Positions 8,483 to 61,666 of a stretch of DNA of 64,000 bases are shown one piece after another (position 1 is the first letter of the stretch; each line of letters starts with the position of its first letter). Source of the stretch: a virus (Duplodnaviria; Caudoviricetes). The position numbers and the translations under genes are program-made. The notes beneath the pieces were generated by a model. The model worked only from the letters and a program-made list of their open reading frames with translations, searched no databases and had not been told where the DNA came from. Location: the IMG/VR virus record IMGVR_UViG_3300037424_000434, positions 32,001 to 96,000 of that record, one strand, 5' to 3'.

Positions 8483-9805
8483 ATGATGTACGAAATTAAC
8501 GGAAAATATACTAATGCCAAGGTGATGATCGATGATTTAGATGCGTCGGCAGTGAGTCAGATAGTCGAAATGGTAAACAACCAATGTTTCACTAATCCGA
8601 TAGCAATCATGCCCGATGCCCACGCTGGCAAGGGATGTGTTGTAGGTTTTACAATGGAATTATCGGACAAATTGATACCAAATATCATAGGTAGCGATAT
8701 TGGATGTGGTATGCTGTCGTTCAATGTCGGAAGTAACCTATTGTCCAATGAAAAGATGCCATTGTTGGATGAGGCTATTCGTGAGCGGATCCCATTTGGT
8801 GCCTCTGCTAGGGGCAAAATGTCCAAAGATGCCATGTTTGACTGGAAATCCATCAACGATGAACTACGAAAACTCTGTATGGAATACAACACTCGATACA
8901 ACATGTCAATGGCACCTGTTGTTATGGATACGGAAAAGTTACGCGCCATCTTTGATCGAGTAGGATGTGACTATCATAGGGGGATGTTATCTATAGGTTC
9001 ATTGGGGGGCGGCAACCATTTCATTGAGATTGGTAAAGACGAAAACAATGACTATTGGGTAACTATTCATTCCGGTTCGCGTAACTTTGGAAAATGTATT
9101 GCTGAATATTGGCAAAAGATCGCCCATAAGAACATGAACGAGCCTGCTTTATCAAAGACTGATTATGTCGAATTCGTTAAGGCAAATTTCGATAAAATGA
9201 AATGGCAAGACGAAATAGCAAAATACGAGACGTTAGTGGGCGGCAAATCTCGTGTGGGGAAAGGAACCGAATATCTTGAGGGCAAAGATGTTTATGGGTA
9301 TTTGGTTGATATGTTTGTTGCTCAGAAGTACGCCGAGATGAGCCGGTACGTCATGTCATGCGAATTAGTGAACTCTATCCGTGTGGTTTCTGACACGTTT
9401 AAGGGTGTAGTCCAGTGTATTGAAACTGTACACAACTTTGTAGACTTCAAAGACTGGATTATTCGTAAAGGGGCTATTCGTTCATACAAAGGGGAGTTGA
9501 TGATAATCCCCTTCAACATGGAAGATGGGTTGTTGATAGTCGAAGGCAAGTCCAACAACGACTGGAACAACTCAGCGCCTCATGGTGCCGGTCGATTATT
9601 TTCCCGATCTGCGGCAAAAGCCAACCTCGATCTTGATATGGCAACAAAATCAATGAAAGACAATGGTATATATTCTTCGTCCATTCCCTTAGATGAAGTC
9701 AAGGGTGCATATAAGCCTTGTGAAGTCATTGAAGCTTGTATTGAACCAACAGCAACCATCATCCACAGAATAAAACCCGTCATGAACCTGAAGGATGGAC
9801 AGTGA
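8483..9805 (+). CDS. rtcB: RtcB RNA ligase
   Basis: MPDAHAGKG, SDIGCGM, SLGGGNHFIE, HSGSRNFG, HN, RKGA, SAPHGAGR. Confidence 0.95.
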   Translation: MMYEINGKYTNAKVMIDDLDASAVSQIVEMVNNQCFTNPIAIMPDAHAGKGCVVGFTMELSDKLIPNIIGSDIGCGMLSFNVGSNLLSNEKMPLLDEAIRERIPFGASARGKMSKDAMFDWKSINDELRKLCMEYNTRYNMSMAPVVMDTEKLRAIFDRVGCDYHRGMLSIGSLGGGNHFIEIGKDENNDYWVTIHSGSRNFGKCIAEYWQKIAHKNMNEPALSKTDYVEFVKANFDKMKWQDEIAKYETLVGGKSRVGKGTEYLEGKDVYGYLVDMFVAQKYAEMSRYVMSCELVNSIRVVSDTFKGVVQCIETVHNFVDFKDWIIRKGAIRSYKGELMIIPFNMEDGLLIVEGKSNNDWNNSAPHGAGRLFSRSAAKANLDLDMATKSMKDNGIYSSSIPLDEVKGAYKPCEVIEACIEPTATIIHRIKPVMNLKDGQ

Positions 9806-55172: not shown

Positions 55173-56564
55173 TCAGGAAAGTTCTTTGTGGACATCCTTT
55201 ATCAGTTTTCTGATACAAACAAACACATCAGAATCAATGAATCTATCGGTGACTTTTTTCTTGATAGCCCCAACCATCTGTCCGGGTTTGATATCAAGAA
55301 GATCCATTATATCTCTGCCATTGACCACTTCAATGGAGTTGTGGTTGGCGTCCACAAAGGCCGAGAATTCCCTCCCCAGTTCTTCAGATTTTCTAAGAAT
55401 TTCAAAATATGGTTCGAAGTCGAATCCGTTACCATTACACTTGGCATCACAGTAAACCACGTTTTTGAGAGTATCCCAGTGTTCGTGGGTAACAATTTTT
55501 GCTACCTTGGATTTTTTCATTTTGTCGATGTTGAGAACTTTCATGTGTTCCCCTGTAGTAAATTTCAGGAGAGCTTTTTCCGCCCCACTCATTTTCAATC
55601 TATTAGCGATAGATGATACAATATCCACCCCGACCACATCATGACTGAAGAACCTATGAGCTTTTTTTTCTTCATCCCATTCATGGGTGGTGGCTTTACC
55701 GAGGTCATGAAACAGAACAGCAAAGTTGGACAGAGCATCCTCTTTGGTGTTCTCTCTAACAGCACACAGCACATGATCATACACTCGACCTTTACCATGG
55801 GTATATGCTTCTGGGTGCCATCTCTGGGTTTCAAACACATCTTGAAGAGCTTTGACTTCTGGAAGAATGTGGATCAGAAGACCAACTTCATCCAACAGTT
55901 CAATTGCATCAGCAAAATGTTTGCCGTCCAGACTAGCCATTTTGAATAGTTCGTCCTTGATACGCTCAACAGAAATCTTTTTGATCAGACAAGCATCATC
56001 ATTAATTGCTTCAAATACTTCTGGGTCAAGTTTGAATCCGAACCGGACAGCGAACCGGACAGCTCGGAGCATTCTCAGATGATCCTCATTGAAACGTTCT
56101 TTGGCAACACCAACAGCGGCAACCACACCTTTATTGATTGCCTCAACCCCACCAACAAAGTCAACAAGGCGTCCATCTTTATCTAGACCCATGGCATTGA
56201 TGGTAAAGTCTCTACGCTGAACGTCCTCTTCAAAGCTCTGAGTAGCTTGAACTTCGTCAGGTCTGCGACCATCGGTATAAGCACCCTCGGTACGCCACTG
56301 GGCGATTTCGAAGTTGAACCCTTTGTGAGGAACAACCACGATACCAAAAGATTTGCCAGCACCAACATCAAAGCTGGTGAACATCTCACCAAGAGCACTC
56401 ATGGAAGCATTTGTCGCGATATCCACGTCCTTTGCTTCAACCCCAAGCAACAAATCTCTAACGCATCCACCAACAAAGTATGCCTCATATCCAGCATCAG
56501 TTAGTTGGACAAGAAGTTCGCGACCCGCTCGGAACATTTCATTTGTCATCATTTTTTTATACAT
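55173..56564 (-). CDS. cca: CCA-adding tRNA nucleotidyltransferase with HD domain
   Basis: VGGCVRDLLLG, DVDIAT, RRDFTINAM, EDHLRMLRAVRF, ERIKDEL, LFHDLGK. Confidence 0.92.
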   Translation of the reverse strand: MYKKMMTNEMFRAGRELLVQLTDAGYEAYFVGGCVRDLLLGVEAKDVDIATNASMSALGEMFTSFDVGAGKSFGIVVVPHKGFNFEIAQWRTEGAYTDGRRPDEVQATQSFEEDVQRRDFTINAMGLDKDGRLVDFVGGVEAINKGVVAAVGVAKERFNEDHLRMLRAVRFAVRFGFKLDPEVFEAINDDACLIKKISVERIKDELFKMASLDGKHFADAIELLDEVGLLIHILPEVKALQDVFETQRWHPEAYTHGKGRVYDHVLCAVRENTKEDALSNFAVLFHDLGKATTHEWDEEKKAHRFFSHDVVGVDIVSSIANRLKMSGAEKALLKFTTGEHMKVLNIDKMKKSKVAKIVTHEHWDTLKNVVYCDAKCNGNGFDFEPYFEILRKSEELGREFSAFVDANHNSIEVVNGRDIMDLLDIKPGQMVGAIKKKVTDRFIDSDVFVCIRKLIKDVHKELS

Positions 56565-59030: not shown

Positions 59031-59303
59031 TTAGTTGGACAAAATCTCATATAATGTCATGGTAATATTGACGTTTTCGGGTTTCCAGCCCATTTCGTCC
59101 GAAATATAAAAGGCGATAATTTTAGGCAAAGACAAGTTTGGATTACCGAAATCTATTTTGTACACATCTTCTGGCGAAAGATTTGTCTCGTGACATGCAA
59201 TTGTTTCCGCTAACTGTATTAAAGTGATATCTTTTGGTATCTGTTTATATGAAATGTTCCATTCTTTTTTTATGATATTTTTAAGCTGTCTCATCCCAGA
59301 CAT
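59031..59303 (-). CDS. Hypothetical protein
   Basis: AGGAG RBS. Confidence 0.55.
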   Translation of the reverse strand: MSGMRQLKNIIKKEWNISYKQIPKDITLIQLAETIACHETNLSPEDVYKIDFGNPNLSLPKIIAFYISDEMGWKPENVNITMTLYEILSN

Positions 59304-59351: not shown

Positions 59352-60911
59352 TCAGATTTCAATACTATTAATCAGATCCAAGGCAGTTTCGCCATTATCC
59401 ATCGCATCCATTACGTCGAAAACTTTATCACTCCATCCCGAAATTAACGTAACATCATTGTCTCGCAGAGAGACCGGAACGGTACCGTATCCACAAAGAT
59501 CAAACAAATATAGTCTCGCGTTTGGGTTTTGTGTTTTATATTTTTTCCACTCTTTATTGATATCAGACCCCGTGTTACTGGTTCCGTACATTTGACAGTC
59601 GGTGAATATCAAAATTTTATCGAAATCTACCCGAGCAGCGTTTGCGTATTCAAGAACTTTATACCCCAAAGTGCTGTACCCCACTCTGCCCTCAAGTTCA
59701 TATACCTTTTCGGAATTCCGTAGAATACCTGTTTTAGGGAAAGGATACACTTCAAACTTATCCCCAAACAACCCTGTAACGGTATTTTTTGCTTTGTGGT
59801 GTACCAACATCGCAAGCACGGACCCAATATCATAATACTGAACAACCGAATGGGGGGACACTGGATGACACATGGACCCGGATACATCCGTCGCGATCAA
59901 CACATTTTCCCCATCAAACATTGGGATATTTTGTGTAGAATGTATAATGGCGGTTTCTAACGCTTCCAAAACTTTTCCGAGTTGTGGATTACCAATCACA
60001 TTGTCTTTTACTGCACAAGGCACTGTACCGCAAAGACGTCTCTTCGGAACAGGAGCAACCCCTGTTGTTAGCATACGATATGCAGACAAAAATCGGAACG
60101 GCAATTGGCGACTGCTTTTGACAGCGGTTTCGTTACTCAAATAATCACATACTTGAGTAATAGATGCACCAGAACACCCGGCATCAAGGATGTTGCGTAG
60201 GTTACGCAATAAGGCCATATACCCAACCTTTTTTGACGCGATCAATTCTTCCCATACATCTTTTTTGGATTCCCCGTTCTGTCCTGCTTCGGACAATCTG
60301 GTTTCCCATGTATAGGGAATGTCAAGAGTCCCGTTGGCTATTTTCTGAAACAAAGCTTTTTGGGCTTCATTGACGGGTTTGGGGTGTGAAAGAAATAATG
60401 CATCACGAAGACGGATTTCACTGTCACGATTATATTTTCCAAAGGCGTATTCGTCAAACTTGCCGAAAGCACCAGCAAGCCCCTTTTCCAATTGTTTAGA
60501 TAGCCTGTTTAGTTTTTTTGTACCAACACGTTGATTAGCGGTTTGGTAATATCCAAGAATTTCGGTAAGTTCGTCTGCTCGTTGAATAACACGTTGTACT
60601 AAACGACTGACAAGGTTGTCACCTTTGTGAACTCGGGCAAGCTCTACAGTCAAAACCAAAGGAATTGTACGTAGGTTCATTTTCTCACGTGCGTACACGG
60701 CGAGTTTTGCGACAAACTCGGCGTCACATATTTTCACGAGATTACGGACACGTTGAACAGTATCTTTTGGTCCCTCATAATATTTTGGATACAACGATGC
60801 TGTACAAACAGTGCTGTACAGTTCCATTTCTGGAGTAAGTGTATAAGCTACTCCCCCTTCAAGGTTTGTGGTTTTTGTGCGGTCTTTTGCTGTTTGGTTG
60901 AATCTAGTCAT
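59352..60911 (-). CDS. rsr: Ro60/TROVE-domain RNA-binding protein
   Basis: NLEGGVAY, ELYSTVCT, LAVYAREKMNLRTIP, YTWET.LS, YMALLRNLRN, PFRF, vWA DVSGSM; ATG at 60911 after GGAGG. Confidence 0.93.
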   Translation of the reverse strand: MTRFNQTAKDRTKTTNLEGGVAYTLTPEMELYSTVCTASLYPKYYEGPKDTVQRVRNLVKICDAEFVAKLAVYAREKMNLRTIPLVLTVELARVHKGDNLVSRLVQRVIQRADELTEILGYYQTANQRVGTKKLNRLSKQLEKGLAGAFGKFDEYAFGKYNRDSEIRLRDALFLSHPKPVNEAQKALFQKIANGTLDIPYTWETRLSEAGQNGESKKDVWEELIASKKVGYMALLRNLRNILDAGCSGASITQVCDYLSNETAVKSSRQLPFRFLSAYRMLTTGVAPVPKRRLCGTVPCAVKDNVIGNPQLGKVLEALETAIIHSTQNIPMFDGENVLIATDVSGSMCHPVSPHSVVQYYDIGSVLAMLVHHKAKNTVTGLFGDKFEVYPFPKTGILRNSEKVYELEGRVGYSTLGYKVLEYANAARVDFDKILIFTDCQMYGTSNTGSDINKEWKKYKTQNPNARLYLFDLCGYGTVPVSLRDNDVTLISGWSDKVFDVMDAMDNGETALDLINSIEI

Positions 60912-60960
60912 TTTGATACCTCCAAGAATTAATACGTCATTTTCGGTTAAAAGATGGATA

Positions 60961-61050
60961 AAAAGGACAACAAGCGAACAGAGCATATACGCGGGGCTAT
61001 GCCCGCAATTTTCATTTGAAGTGAAGTATCTCTATACTACGGCACCTTTT
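60961..61050 (-). ncRNA. Y-RNA-like element 2 (about 90 nt)
   Basis: AAAAGG/CCUUUU outer stem, UGCCGUAG-AUAGAG/CUCUGU helix-AUACUUC, GCGGG/CCCGC hairpin; directly upstream of ro60. Confidence 0.65.
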
Positions 61051-61063
61051 TATTATGGGTAAA

Positions 61064-61278
61064 GAAACTATTGAGAAATTGCCACCAAGAGACACCGAAG
61101 GGTATGATTTAGTTGTTGGTCAATCCTTCTGTTGTATTTAACGTGTTTCTGGGTTTATTCCAGAACACGAATATCCGTATTGTGTTTTGTGTTTTATGCT
61201 TCACGTTGGTGATTCGGGAATATTATACCACCATATCTGTAAGTAGAAGTAACTCTTAACTACGTCATCAATAGTTTC
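61064..61278 (-). ncRNA. Y-RNA-like element 1 (about 215 nt)
   Basis: 11-bp outer stem, UGACGUAG-UUAAGAG/CUCUUGG-UUACUUC, three internal hairpins. Confidence 0.65.
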
Positions 61279-61322
61279 GATTGTCAAAGATCAACACACA
61301 AGATTCCTCTTTGGTGTGGTAG

Positions 61323-61330
61323 TATTTATA
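61323..61330 (-). promoter_or_regulatory. T4-type late promoter upstream of the Y-RNA-like elements and ro60
   Basis: TATAAATA on the minus strand. Confidence 0.7.
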
Positions 61331-61459
61331 TCACTTTCAACTCATTATGTAAACATGACTTTCGGGGAAAAAATATATATTTTTGTAAAAGAAAAAACCC
61401 CTTAAACATCAAGGGGTTATATCATCGCATTAAATTATAGGGAGCTAGGGATTAATCGC

Positions 61460-61666
61460 TCACTCCACCCGGAAGTATTCTTTTAATTTTTTCTTGGGTT
61501 TCTTTTTCTTTTTTGTTATAATGTTTTTTCTTTTTTCGAGTTTTTCTATATCCATTGTATTTGTACCGGGATTGATTCCTATAACCCCGTCAGCCCCAGC
61601 ACCTGATCCAACAGTTCCTGCGCCGTCCTCATCAAGGATATAGTTTATTCTGTCCAAGATGTCCAT
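61460..61666 (-). CDS. Small internal-protein-like peptide with Lys-rich tail
   Basis: MDILDRINYILDE, Gly-rich middle, KKKKKPKKK. Confidence 0.65.
   Translation of the reverse strand: MDILDRINYILDEDGAGTVGSGAGADGVIGINPGTNTMDIEKLEKRKNIITKKKKKPKKKLKEYFRVE

What the first reader, a model, noticed from the sequence alone, without database searches (positions are those of the whole stretch)
59352..61330. Phage Ro60 preceded by two tandem Y-RNA-like RNAs under a late promoter
Seen on the minus strand: late TATAAATA (61323-30), then a 215-nt and a 90-nt element, then ro60. Both fold with paired ends and share UG[A/C]CGUAG, a 7-nt helix strand ending GAG, and [U/A]UACUUC. The helices need G-U pairs that only work on the minus strand (UUAAGAG/CUCUUGG; AUAGAG/CUCUGU), supporting that strand. 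The internal domains differ: three hairpins versus a UUCA-CUUCAAA-UGAA arm plus a GCGGG/CCCGC T-arm-like hairpin. Established: bacterial Ro60 binds adjacent Y RNAs through a GNCG-containing stem, and these RNAs tether it to effectors or mimic tRNA. Inference: two different scaffolds programme one Ro60 for different partners, possibly RtcB/CCA-based tRNA repair or nuclease decoying.
Basis: partly seen in the sequence, partly recalled or inferred. Interest (0 to 1): 0.8.

Follow-up and report, generated by a model that had tools for sequence, protein, structure and literature searches.

The report
Phage Ro60 with tandem Y RNAs
Upstream of its Ro60 gene, a 236-kb phage from sediment encodes two structured RNAs with the stem typical of bacterial Y RNAs (the known RNA partners of Ro60); this pairing is already known in phages, but the larger RNA has a conserved pseudoknotted domain that matched no Rfam family and no other Ro60 locus I searched.

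Summary
Window 59352-60911 (-) encodes a Ro60 (TROVE + vWA_Ro60). The 548-nt gap upstream holds a 215-nt RNA ("class A", 61064-61278) and a 98-nt RNA ("class B", 60957-61054) on the same strand.

- **Shared stem:** P1, bulged U, G-C and N-N' pairs, an internal loop (5' CGUA opposite 7 nt), an 8-bp P2, then NUACUUC.
- **Family:** A covariance model built from class B found about 490 full-length matches. All listed matches in the Ro60-anchored loci were on the Ro60 strand. Covariation was strong (96-98% of cells paired against 67-76% in shuffles). These are members of the bacterial Yrl (YrlA/YrlB) Y RNA family. Two Yrl RNAs upstream of a phage Ro60 were already published for Thermus phage phiLo.
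- **What is new:** Class A replaces the tRNA-like domain with a roughly 150-nt domain built on an H-type pseudoknot (7 of 7 pairs covary). I found it only in 12 related phage loci and it has no Rfam match.
- **Whole genome:** There are four Y-like RNAs, including a canonical tRNA-like YrlA inside the tRNA array.
- **Promoter:** TATAAATA is conserved, but so is a -35 GTTTACA 17 nt upstream, so "late" is not established.
- **Not shown:** Binding to Ro60, discrete transcripts and the effector partners.

The parts
61396..61418 (-). Intrinsic-terminator-like hairpin that ends the upstream gene (68-aa ORF, 61460-61666). It marks the 5' boundary of the RNA locus.
   Evidence: 10-bp stem followed by a U run. 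An equivalent hairpin precedes the locus in the relatives.
61348..61354 (-). -35-like box GTTTACA, 17 nt upstream of TATAAATA.
   Evidence: The box is conserved at exactly 17-nt spacing in all 9 distinct close loci (GTTGACA in L021). None of the other 14 TATAAATA sites in the window has it.
61323..61330 (-). TATAAATA box, which can be read as a T4-type late promoter or as a -10 element.
   Evidence: 15 sites in the window against 6.5 expected. Conserved in 8 of 9 close loci.
61295..61318 (-). Leader hairpin between the predicted transcription start and the class A stem. It is optional: present in 4 loci and absent where the promoter abuts P1.
   Evidence: Read directly from the sequences. Not tested further.
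61064..61278 (-). Class A Y-like RNA, 215 nt. Elements in order:
- P1: 61268-61278 pairs with 61064-61074
- bulged U: 61267
- GA/UC pairs: 61265-61266 with 61075-61076
- internal loop: CGUA 61261-61264 opposite GGCAAUU 61077-61083
- P2: 61253-61260 with 61084-61091
- UUACUUC: 61246-61252
   Evidence: P1 and P2 pair in 12 of 12 loci with 10 different P1 arms. Model R1 with filters off scores 16.3 bits (E 2.4e-4) with every pair standard.
61136..61233 (-). Class A core domain:
- hairpin PX: 61207-61233
- its loop segment AAUAUUCC (61217-61224) pairs with GGAUAUU (61170-61176), forming an H-type pseudoknot across an A-rich linker (61177-61206)
- CGUG/CACG helix enclosing a hairpin with a UAA-containing loop: 61142-61169
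- conserved UUAAAU: 61136-61141
   Evidence: In the pseudoknot helix 7 of 7 pairs change on both sides, 96.4% of cells pair, and 0 of 500 shuffles reach the observed values. Model R2 found L237-L239, which were not in its training set.
61097..61129 (-). Class A hairpin P7 (GAAGG...CCUUC).
   Evidence: The stem differs among loci but always pairs: GAAGA/UCUUC, GAUAGA/UCUAUC, GAGG/CCUC, GGGG/CCCC, GGGAG/CUCCC, GUGGA/UCCAC.
60957..61054 (-). Class B Y-like RNA, 98 nt. Elements in order:
- P1: 61045-61054 with 60957-60966
- bulged U: 61044
- GC/GU pairs: 61042-61043 with 60967-60968
- internal loop: CGUA 61038-61041 opposite GCUUGUU 60969-60975
- P2: 61030-61037 with 60976-60983
- AUACUUC: 61023-61029
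- hairpins: 61011-61025 and 60991-61006
   Evidence: (82.4 bits).
60917..60941 (-). Conserved element in the ro60 5' UTR, AAUGACGU-N-UAAUUCUUGGAGGUA. It repeats the UGACGU of the Y stem and ends in the Shine-Dalgarno sequence.
   Evidence: 24 invariant positions across 12 loci whose Ro60 proteins are only 56-77% identical. Unique in the genome. Its function is inferred only.
59352..60911 (-). ro60 gene (519 aa, TROVE + vWA_Ro60).
   Evidence: (phrog_850, 1.9e-57; best solved relative is phiLo Ro60 9KOP/9L5Y at 4.6e-23; Xenopus Ro 1YVP at 1e-7).
59031..59303 (-). Conserved 90-aa helical protein of unknown family, just downstream of ro60 (a HAD gene lies between them in two loci). It is called in 10 of the 12 related loci and cut by the contig end in the other two, and its start overlaps the ro60 stop in L237-L239.
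   Evidence: AF2 pLDDT 88. No significant fold match.
55173..56564 (-). CCA-adding enzyme (PolyA_pol family), syntenic with ro60 in the six relatives whose contigs reach that far.
   Evidence: PF01743, 4.3e-34.

Best explanation
The two elements are phage-encoded Y RNAs of the bacterial Yrl (YrlA/YrlB) family.

**Proposed mechanism**
- They are transcribed from one conserved promoter on the ro60 strand. They are most likely co-transcribed with ro60 and cut out of that transcript.
- Each uses the same conserved stem to bind the phage Ro60. The stem consists of P1, a bulged U, G-C and N-N' pairs, a CGUA/7-nt internal loop and P2.
- The variable domain beyond NUACUUC determines what the Ro60 particle then contacts.
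- Class A carries a clade-specific pseudoknotted domain of about 150 nt and is the constant partner: it is present in 12 of 12 related loci. Class B and its copies number 0 to 3 per locus. Like YrlB, they have no tRNA-like or other large effector domain.
- With a canonical tRNA-like YrlA in the tRNA array and a minimal 75-nt copy at 212 kb, the phage has four alternative RNA partners for one Ro60.

**Status of each step**
- Shown: conserved structure, family membership of the stem, and linkage to ro60.
- Inferred from the family (D. radiodurans, S. Typhimurium, phage phiLo): Ro60 binding, processing, and tethering or inhibition of an effector such as host PNPase.
For: - Ro60 is confirmed.
- The motif occurs twice in the window against 0 expected. 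It is present in every relative, at 1 to 4 copies per locus.
- RNAalifold on 12 class B copies gives P1, P2 and the N-N' pair (UA 5, AU 4, GC 2, CG 1).
- Model R1 gave 319 matches in 100 Ro60 loci. All those listed are on the Ro60 strand, and many form tandem arrays. In that set 95.7% of cells pair against 75.6% in shuffles, and 14 of 14 pairs change on both sides.
- An independent set was picked only by the 5'-strand word. It gave 173 full-length matches, with 97.9% of cells paired against 66.9% in shuffles. The N-N' pair reads CG 69, GC 32, UA 28, AU 8, UG 2.
- 96 of 150 matches carry a GGUUCGAAUCC-type T loop, so the same stem belongs to tRNA-like YrlA RNAs.
- The YrlA-like RNA of phage GiJojo (RF02553 full length, 30.7 bits, below the cut-off) begins GAUGCGUAGUUGAGAGAUACUUCUAC.
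- The motif GNCGUAG is one base away from the published GNCGAAN0-1G (PMC4201824).
- Phage phiLo Yrl1 and Yrl2 lie upstream of its Ro60 and bind both it and host PNPase (PMC12135203).
- Class A core.
- Genome inventory.
Against: - No Rfam family reaches its threshold on either RNA. YrlA RF02553 is not reported even at E <= 10.
- The motif has U where the published motif has A.
- No RNA data exist for this uncultured phage, so discrete transcripts, their ends and their processing are unknown.
- No terminator separates the RNAs from ro60, so they could act in cis.
- The 3' side of the class A internal loop (GAYNWAW) differs from the family consensus GCUUGUU. Ro60 binding is therefore less certain for class A than for class B.
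- The alignments used for the large pair counts were fitted to the model.
Confidence: 0.85

Rival explanations
1. The structures are a cis-acting leader of the ro60 mRNA rather than free small RNAs. Ro60 would bind them, and the UGACGU element next to the Shine-Dalgarno sequence, to control its own translation or mRNA stability.
For: - There is no terminator between the RNAs and ro60.
- One conserved promoter serves the whole unit.
- A 25-nt UTR element containing UGACGU and the Shine-Dalgarno sequence is invariant in 12 loci.
Against: - The same module occurs away from ro60 in this genome, at 202.55 kb and 212.06 kb.
- It occurs downstream of Ro60 in a Cytophagaceae genome and in crAss001.
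- Family members are stable processed RNAs in Salmonella and Mycobacterium (PMC4201824).
- The two roles do not exclude each other.
Confidence: 0.1
2. The RNAs are Y RNAs, but their main role is to sequester or inhibit a host nuclease such as PNPase (decoy or attenuator), not to arm Ro60 with an effector.
For: - In phage phiLo, Ro60 with Yrl RNAs forms complexes with host PNPase and attenuates its activity (PMC12135203).
- No PNPase gene was noticed in the window. This point was not tested genome-wide.
- Class A has a long A-rich single-stranded linker (61177-61206), the kind of segment that KH/S1 domains bind. This is inference only.
Against: Nothing here distinguishes tethering from inhibition. 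The pseudoknot domain is far more elaborate than a single-stranded decoy would need.
Confidence: 0.3
3. The elements are degenerate tRNA-derived sequences or repeated DNA without an RNA function.
For: The family is thought to derive from tRNA, and the genome has 27 tRNAs and a tmRNA.
Against: - No tRNA signal was found by ARAGORN or Rfam.
- Compensatory changes keep every helix in 12 loci.
- The G-U pairs are strand-specific.
Confidence: 0.02

Closest known systems
Bacterial YrlA/YrlB Y RNAs (Chen et al. 2014, RNA 20:1715, PMC4201824; Rfam RF02553)
   Same: - Encoded beside Ro60/Rsr on the same strand, often two or more per locus.
- The 5' and 3' ends pair in a stem interrupted by an asymmetric internal loop.
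- The 5' strand carries GNCG(A/U)A(N)G, followed by a 7-8 bp helix and a YUAY-type word (here NUACUUC).
- The genome also holds a true tRNA-like YrlA at C1:202554-202696.
   Different: - The motif reads GNCGUAG rather than GNCGAA. This variant is the commonest form among the Ro60-adjacent matches found here (83% have U).
- Neither ro60-adjacent RNA has T or D arms.
- Class A has a pseudoknotted domain, and the 3' side of its internal loop differs from the consensus.
- RF02553 does not score them.
Yrl1 and Yrl2 of Thermus phage phiLo (NAR 2025, PMC12135203)
   Same: Two Y-RNA-like genes lie directly upstream of a phage Ro60. These RNAs were shown to bind that Ro60 and host PNPase. phiLo Ro60 is the closest solved relative of this protein (4.6e-23).
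   Different: The phiLo RNAs were identified through a CGAA motif and a stem-bulge-stem shape. No large pseudoknotted domain is described in the passages I read. I did not compare the RNA sequences directly.
YrlA-like RNA of Streptomyces phage GiJojo (PP725410.1, 9455-9569) and its downstream second module
   Same: The 5' word is almost identical (UGCGUAGUUGAGAGAUACUUCUAC against UGACGUAGUUGAGAGAUACUUCUAC in L019 and L020). The modules are in tandem, upstream of Ro60 and among tRNA genes.
   Different: GiJojo lacks the N of GNCG, and the RNA matched by RF02553 carries canonical T and D arms. I did not examine the interior of its second module.
Metazoan and Deinococcus Y RNAs (Rfam Y_RNA, Yrn1)
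   Same: They have the same modular logic: a terminal stem binds Ro60, and a variable loop or domain binds effectors or gates the Ro60 cavity.
   Different: There is no sequence or covariance-model match. The Ro-binding helix there reads GGUCCGA with a bulged C.

Membership tests
Bacterial Yrl (YrlA/YrlB) Y RNAs | Encoded next to a Ro60/Rsr (TROVE + vWA) gene, on the same strand | tested here: met
   All listed R1 matches in the loci oriented by their Ro60 gene are on the Ro60 strand.
Bacterial Yrl (YrlA/YrlB) Y RNAs | 5' and 3' ends pair in a long stem interrupted by an internal loop or bulge | tested here: met
   95.7% of cells paired, 14 of 14 pairs with changes on both sides; 97.9% paired.
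Bacterial Yrl (YrlA/YrlB) Y RNAs | GNCGAAN0-1G motif near the 5' end | tested here: inconclusive
   The motif here is GNCGUAG, with U at position 5. The same variant appears in 83% of 138 other Ro60-adjacent matches and in GiJojo's YrlA-like RNA.
Bacterial Yrl (YrlA/YrlB) Y RNAs | Retrieved reciprocally with other members by a covariance model | tested here: met
   R1, built from class B, finds RNAs that carry T loops in 96 of 150 matches. It also finds this genome's own YrlA at 55.2 bits. Class A scores 16.3 bits with filters off.
YrlA proper (Rfam RF02553) | tRNA-like domain with T and D arms, and a score at or above 69 bits | tested here: not met
   Neither RNA is matched, even at E <= 10. 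Neither has a T-loop word. A separate gene at C1:202554-202696 does have T and D arms, but RF02553 gives it only 38.1 bits.
Bacterial Yrl (YrlA/YrlB) Y RNAs | Binds Ro60 and accumulates as a discrete stable RNA | not testable with these tools
   No run on record as RNA holds this DNA. The phage is uncultured.
T4-type late promoter | TATAAATA at -10 and no -35 element | tested here: inconclusive
   TATAAATA is present and conserved. A conserved GTTTACA lies 17 nt upstream, and none of the other 14 TATAAATA sites has it.
H-type pseudoknot (class A core) | Hairpin-loop nucleotides pair with a downstream segment, supported by covariation | tested here: met
   7 of 7 pairs change on both sides and 96.4% of cells pair, against 29-45% when the partner is slid by 1-3 columns. 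L238 changes CC/GG to AG/CU.

The most novel reading that the evidence does not exclude
Class A is a new subclass of Y RNA. In it, the tRNA-like effector module is replaced by a conserved pseudoknotted domain of about 150 nt that recruits a partner not yet linked to Ro60. The phage switches one Ro60 among four RNA scaffolds and controls Ro60 synthesis through a Ro60-binding operator (AAUGACGU) next to the ribosome-binding site of ro60.
Probability: 0.3. Interest if true: 0.7.

Novelty: new variant of a known kind. Interest (0 to 1): 0.45.

Why it matters
Ro60-Y RNA particles are understood as modular machines, in which the RNA decides what Ro60 acts on. Only two effector modules are known in bacteria: the one that binds PNPase and the tRNA-like one.

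- **A candidate third module.** Class A offers a clade-conserved, covariation-supported third module on a canonical Ro60-binding stem. It sits in a phage that also carries RtcB, a CCA-adding enzyme, an RNA ligase, 27 tRNAs and a tmRNA. That gives a concrete bait for finding new Ro60 partners, and for asking what phages use Ro60 for.
- **A refined binding site.** The comparative data show that the 'N' of GNCG is always base-paired. The conserved core is a bulged U, two pairs and a CGUA/7-nt loop.
- **What is not new.** The general claim, a phage Ro60 with adjacent Y RNAs, was published in 2014 and 2025.

Tried and rejected
- **Rfam.** I scanned the window at gathering thresholds, the intergenic region at E <= 10, and seven relatives at E <= 1. 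Nothing was found on either RNA.
- **ARAGORN.** No tRNA in the window.
- **blastn against phage records.** No match for the locus.
- **Class A 5' word in viral contigs.** No hit.
- **Class A core model (R2).** It found nothing in 90 other Ro60 loci or in 80 metagenome loci that carry the stem motif.
- **First own-genome pattern search.** It returned nothing because my pattern was one base short. I corrected it.
- **My interim conclusion that the phage lacks a tRNA-like YrlA.** This was wrong: one lies in the tRNA array.
- **Pairing of ACUUCU with AGAAG in class A.** I dropped this in favour of hairpin P7, which covaries.
- **T-loop likeness of the PX loop (NCCGAAU).** I considered it and do not claim it.
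- **Sequencing runs.** No RNA holder is listed. The three listed holders are DNA from sediment metagenomes, and I did not lay reads.
- **The 90-aa neighbour.** It has no Pfam or PHROG family. It has no significant fold match in PDB or AFDB clusters, only weak resemblance to ACP-like helical bundles at E of about 0.5. The atlas leads (HTH, ACP) are below reliability.
- **Predicted complex of Ro60 with the 90-aa protein.** No verdict, score 0.00.
Full report
**1. The observation**

On the minus strand, ORF 59352-60911 encodes a 519-aa protein.
- It matches TROVE (3.9e-30), vWA_Ro60 (7.9e-9) and PHROG 850 "RNA-binding protein" (1.9e-57).
- Its closest solved relative is the Ro60 of Thermus phage phiLo (9KOP/9L5Y, 4.6e-23), followed by Xenopus Ro (1e-7).

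The 548-nt gap upstream (60912-61459) has no plausible gene. It begins with the terminator of the preceding gene (61396-61418). Their shared 22-nt word occurs twice in the window, against none expected. Single-sequence folding is only about 2 sd better than shuffles, so I relied on comparison with relatives.

**2. Relatives**

The window is part of a 235,765-bp virus record from a sediment metagenome. Phage and viral-contig collections hold only distant Ro60 relatives, at 36% identity or less.

The large protein collection gave metagenomic Ro60s at 63-77% identity. I fetched eight distinct loci, and later three more at 56-58% identity.
- Gene order is conserved: small genes, an RNA gap, ro60, a 90-aa gene, a gene of about 450-600 aa, and (wherever the contig reaches that far) a CCA-adding enzyme.
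- Every close locus has GUGNCGUAG-N7-NUACUUC in the gap, in 1 to 4 copies.
- The first copy is always the long "class A" form.
- The later copies are short "class B" forms (75-139 nt).

**3. The shared stem**

I aligned 12 class B copies (A1) and ran RNAalifold. The stem reads as follows:
- P1
- a bulged U
- a G-C pair
- a pair between the N of GNCG and a 3' nucleotide (UA 5, AU 4, GC 2, CG 1)
- an internal loop of CGUA opposite 7 nt (GCUUGWW)
- an 8-bp P2

Class A has the same layout, with P1 and P2 paired in 12 of 12 loci and 10 different P1 arms. However, the 3' side of its internal loop reads GAYNWAW. The U-G pairs in P2 fix the strand.

**4. Family**

A covariance model built from A1 (R1) was run on 100 Ro60 loci from viral contigs, named phages and 73 of the 75 bacterial and archaeal genome loci fetched.
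- It gave 319 matches at E <= 1. All listed matches are on the Ro60 strand, nearly all cover the full model, and they often form tandem arrays.
- Over 150 of them, 95.7% of cells pair (75.6% in shuffles; 42-61% when the partner is slid), and all 14 pairs show changes on both sides.
- The consensus outside the phage clade is GG-U-GG-CGUA-G...NUACUUCG and C-GCUUGUU-CC-CC.
- 96 of the 150 carry a GGUUCGAAUCC-type T loop and are about 135-145 nt long, which is the tRNA-like YrlA type. Those of about 75-80 nt look like YrlB.

For an independent test I scanned metagenome contigs for the 5'-strand word alone. The scan returned 120 stretches and stopped at its limit.
- R1 found 173 full-length matches in the 80 loci returned.
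- 97.9% of cells pair, against 66.9% in shuffles. The N-N' pair reads CG 69, GC 32, UA 28, AU 8, UG 2, with one unpaired.
- These alignments are fitted to the model, which inflates pairing somewhat. The slid controls and the range of pair types still argue for real structure.

Rfam's YrlA (RF02553, cut-off 69 bits) does not match the two RNAs. It does match, at full length but only 30.7 bits, an RNA upstream of the Ro-like gene of Streptomyces phage GiJojo. That RNA begins GAUGCGUAGUUGAGAGAUACUUCUAC, which is the class A word minus one base, and continues into true T and D arms. A second module follows it.

The published Ro60-binding motif is GNCGAAN0-1G, followed by YUAY (PMC4201824). The motif here is GNCGUAG followed by NUAC. 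I therefore place both RNAs in the Yrl family through their stem, with the motif variant noted.

**5. Class A domain**

The interior of class A is conserved among relatives. It contains:
- a hairpin PX with a loop of about 17 nt;
- an A-rich linker;
- GGAYRYU, which pairs with the PX loop and so forms an H-type pseudoknot;
- a CGUG/CACG helix around a hairpin with a UAA loop;
- UUAAAU;
- a hairpin P7.

A model of the core (R2) matched only the nine training loci among 100 Ro60 loci. It matched none of the 80 motif-bearing metagenome loci. It did find the three untrained loci L237-L239, at 57.8, 55.9 and 26.3 bits.

On the 12 sequences, all 7 pseudoknot pairs change on both sides and 96.4% of cells pair. 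In 0 of 500 shuffles were the observed pairing percentage, both-side changes or covariation score reached, and slid controls gave 29-45%. L238 even swaps CC/GG for AG/CU. PX and P7 stems differ between loci but always pair.

No Rfam family matches this domain in seven relatives. In L237-L239, class A is the only RNA in the gap.

**6. Whole genome**

A relaxed pattern search and a tiling of the genome with R1 and R2 gave four Y-like genes:
- class A and class B at ro60;
- a canonical YrlA at C1:202554-202696, inside the tRNA array. R1 scores it 55.2 bits. Its T arm is GCUGGUUCGAAUCCAGC and its D arm is UAGCUCAGCGGUAGAGCA. ARAGORN had called part of it an odd tRNA-Arg;
- a minimal 75-nt copy at C1:212056-212130.

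[quoted passage not shown] Class A is an additional scaffold rather than a replacement.

The genome also encodes:
- RtcB (window 8558-9793);
- an Rnl2-type ligase;
- the CCA-adding enzyme (window 55173-56564);
- 27 tRNAs;
- a tmRNA.

**7. Promoter**

TATAAATA is enriched in the window (15 sites against 6.5 expected) and is conserved here in 8 of 9 close loci. However, GTTTACA lies exactly 17 nt upstream in all nine (GTTGACA in L021), and none of the other 14 TATAAATA sites has such a box. From my own knowledge, T4 early promoters have a GTTTAC -35 box, and T4 late promoters have no -35 element. The site may therefore be early-type or dual, and the timing is open.

In L019-L022 the predicted start abuts P1. 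In four loci, including the window, a leader hairpin intervenes. In L237-L239 the TATAAAT overlaps P1 itself, so a start there would remove P1. This remains unexplained.

**8. Other conserved features**

- A 25-nt element just upstream of the ro60 start is invariant in 12 loci and repeats UGACGU. Ro60 autoregulation is a reasonable but untested reading.
- The 90-aa neighbour is conserved and folds confidently as a helical bundle, with no informative match.

**9. What is known, and verdict**

Y RNAs next to phage Ro60 genes were reported in 2014 for 22 phages. For phiLo, two Yrl RNAs upstream of Ro60 were shown to bind it and host PNPase. A Listeria phage study also proposes phage Y RNAs.

The finding is therefore a real and well-supported member of a known system. 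What is new is the pseudoknotted class A domain, the four-RNA repertoire, and the refined description of the binding stem. Function beyond family analogy is not shown.

Noticed in passing
Own genome, G000:C1:202554-202696 (+) = L029:1457-1599 (outside the window): A canonical tRNA-like YrlA (Y stem plus T arm, acceptor-like stem and D arm) sits inside the phage tRNA array. ARAGORN partly miscalls it as a second tRNA-Arg(tct) with its anticodon at position 29.
   Followed up: yes
Own genome, G000:C1:212056-212130 (+) = L028:1490-1564: A minimal 75-nt Y-stem RNA (YrlB-like) with no interior hairpin, about 1.3 kb past the tmRNA gene. It is preceded by TTGACA-N17-TAAGAT.
   Followed up: partly
Window 60917-60941 (-): The ro60 5' UTR element AAUGACGU..UAAUUCUUGGAGGUA is invariant in 12 loci. 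An upstream UACC could pair with the GGUA of the ribosome-binding site. It is a possible Ro60 operator.
   Followed up: partly
Window 59031-59303 (-): A 90-aa helical protein lies downstream of ro60: adjacent in most of the 12 related loci, separated by a HAD gene in two, and cut by the contig end in two. Its start overlaps the ro60 stop in three loci. It has no family or fold match.
   Followed up: yes
Window 8558-9793 (+) and 55173-56564 (-); own genome C1:196082-196573: RtcB, a CCA-adding enzyme and an Rnl2-type RNA ligase are all encoded by the phage, together with 27 tRNAs and a tmRNA (C1:210355-210709). This amounts to a large RNA-repair and translation toolkit.
   Followed up: partly
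L099, L079, L111, L089 and many other Acidobacteria loci (Terracidiphilus and relatives): Five Y-stem RNAs lie in tandem within the 1.5 kb upstream of Ro60, mixing types of about 140 nt and about 76 nt. Metagenome contigs L147 (8 copies) and L162 (6 copies) show similar arrays.
   Followed up: partly
L033:3862-3953 (Bacteroides phage crAss001, MH675552.1): A full-length match to the Y-stem model (27.5 bits, E 1e-4) lies in the unannotated 900-nt gap just downstream of the TROVE gene gp96. It is a candidate crAss001 Y RNA.
   Followed up: no
L237-L239, about 2790-2810: In the more distant clade, the TATAAAT word overlaps the 5' strand of P1 of class A, so a start there would remove the stem. 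The promoter used in these phages is unclear.
   Followed up: no
L018 and L019, between ro60 and the 90-aa gene: A HAD_SAK_2 phosphatase-like gene is inserted in two relatives but absent from the window.
   Followed up: no
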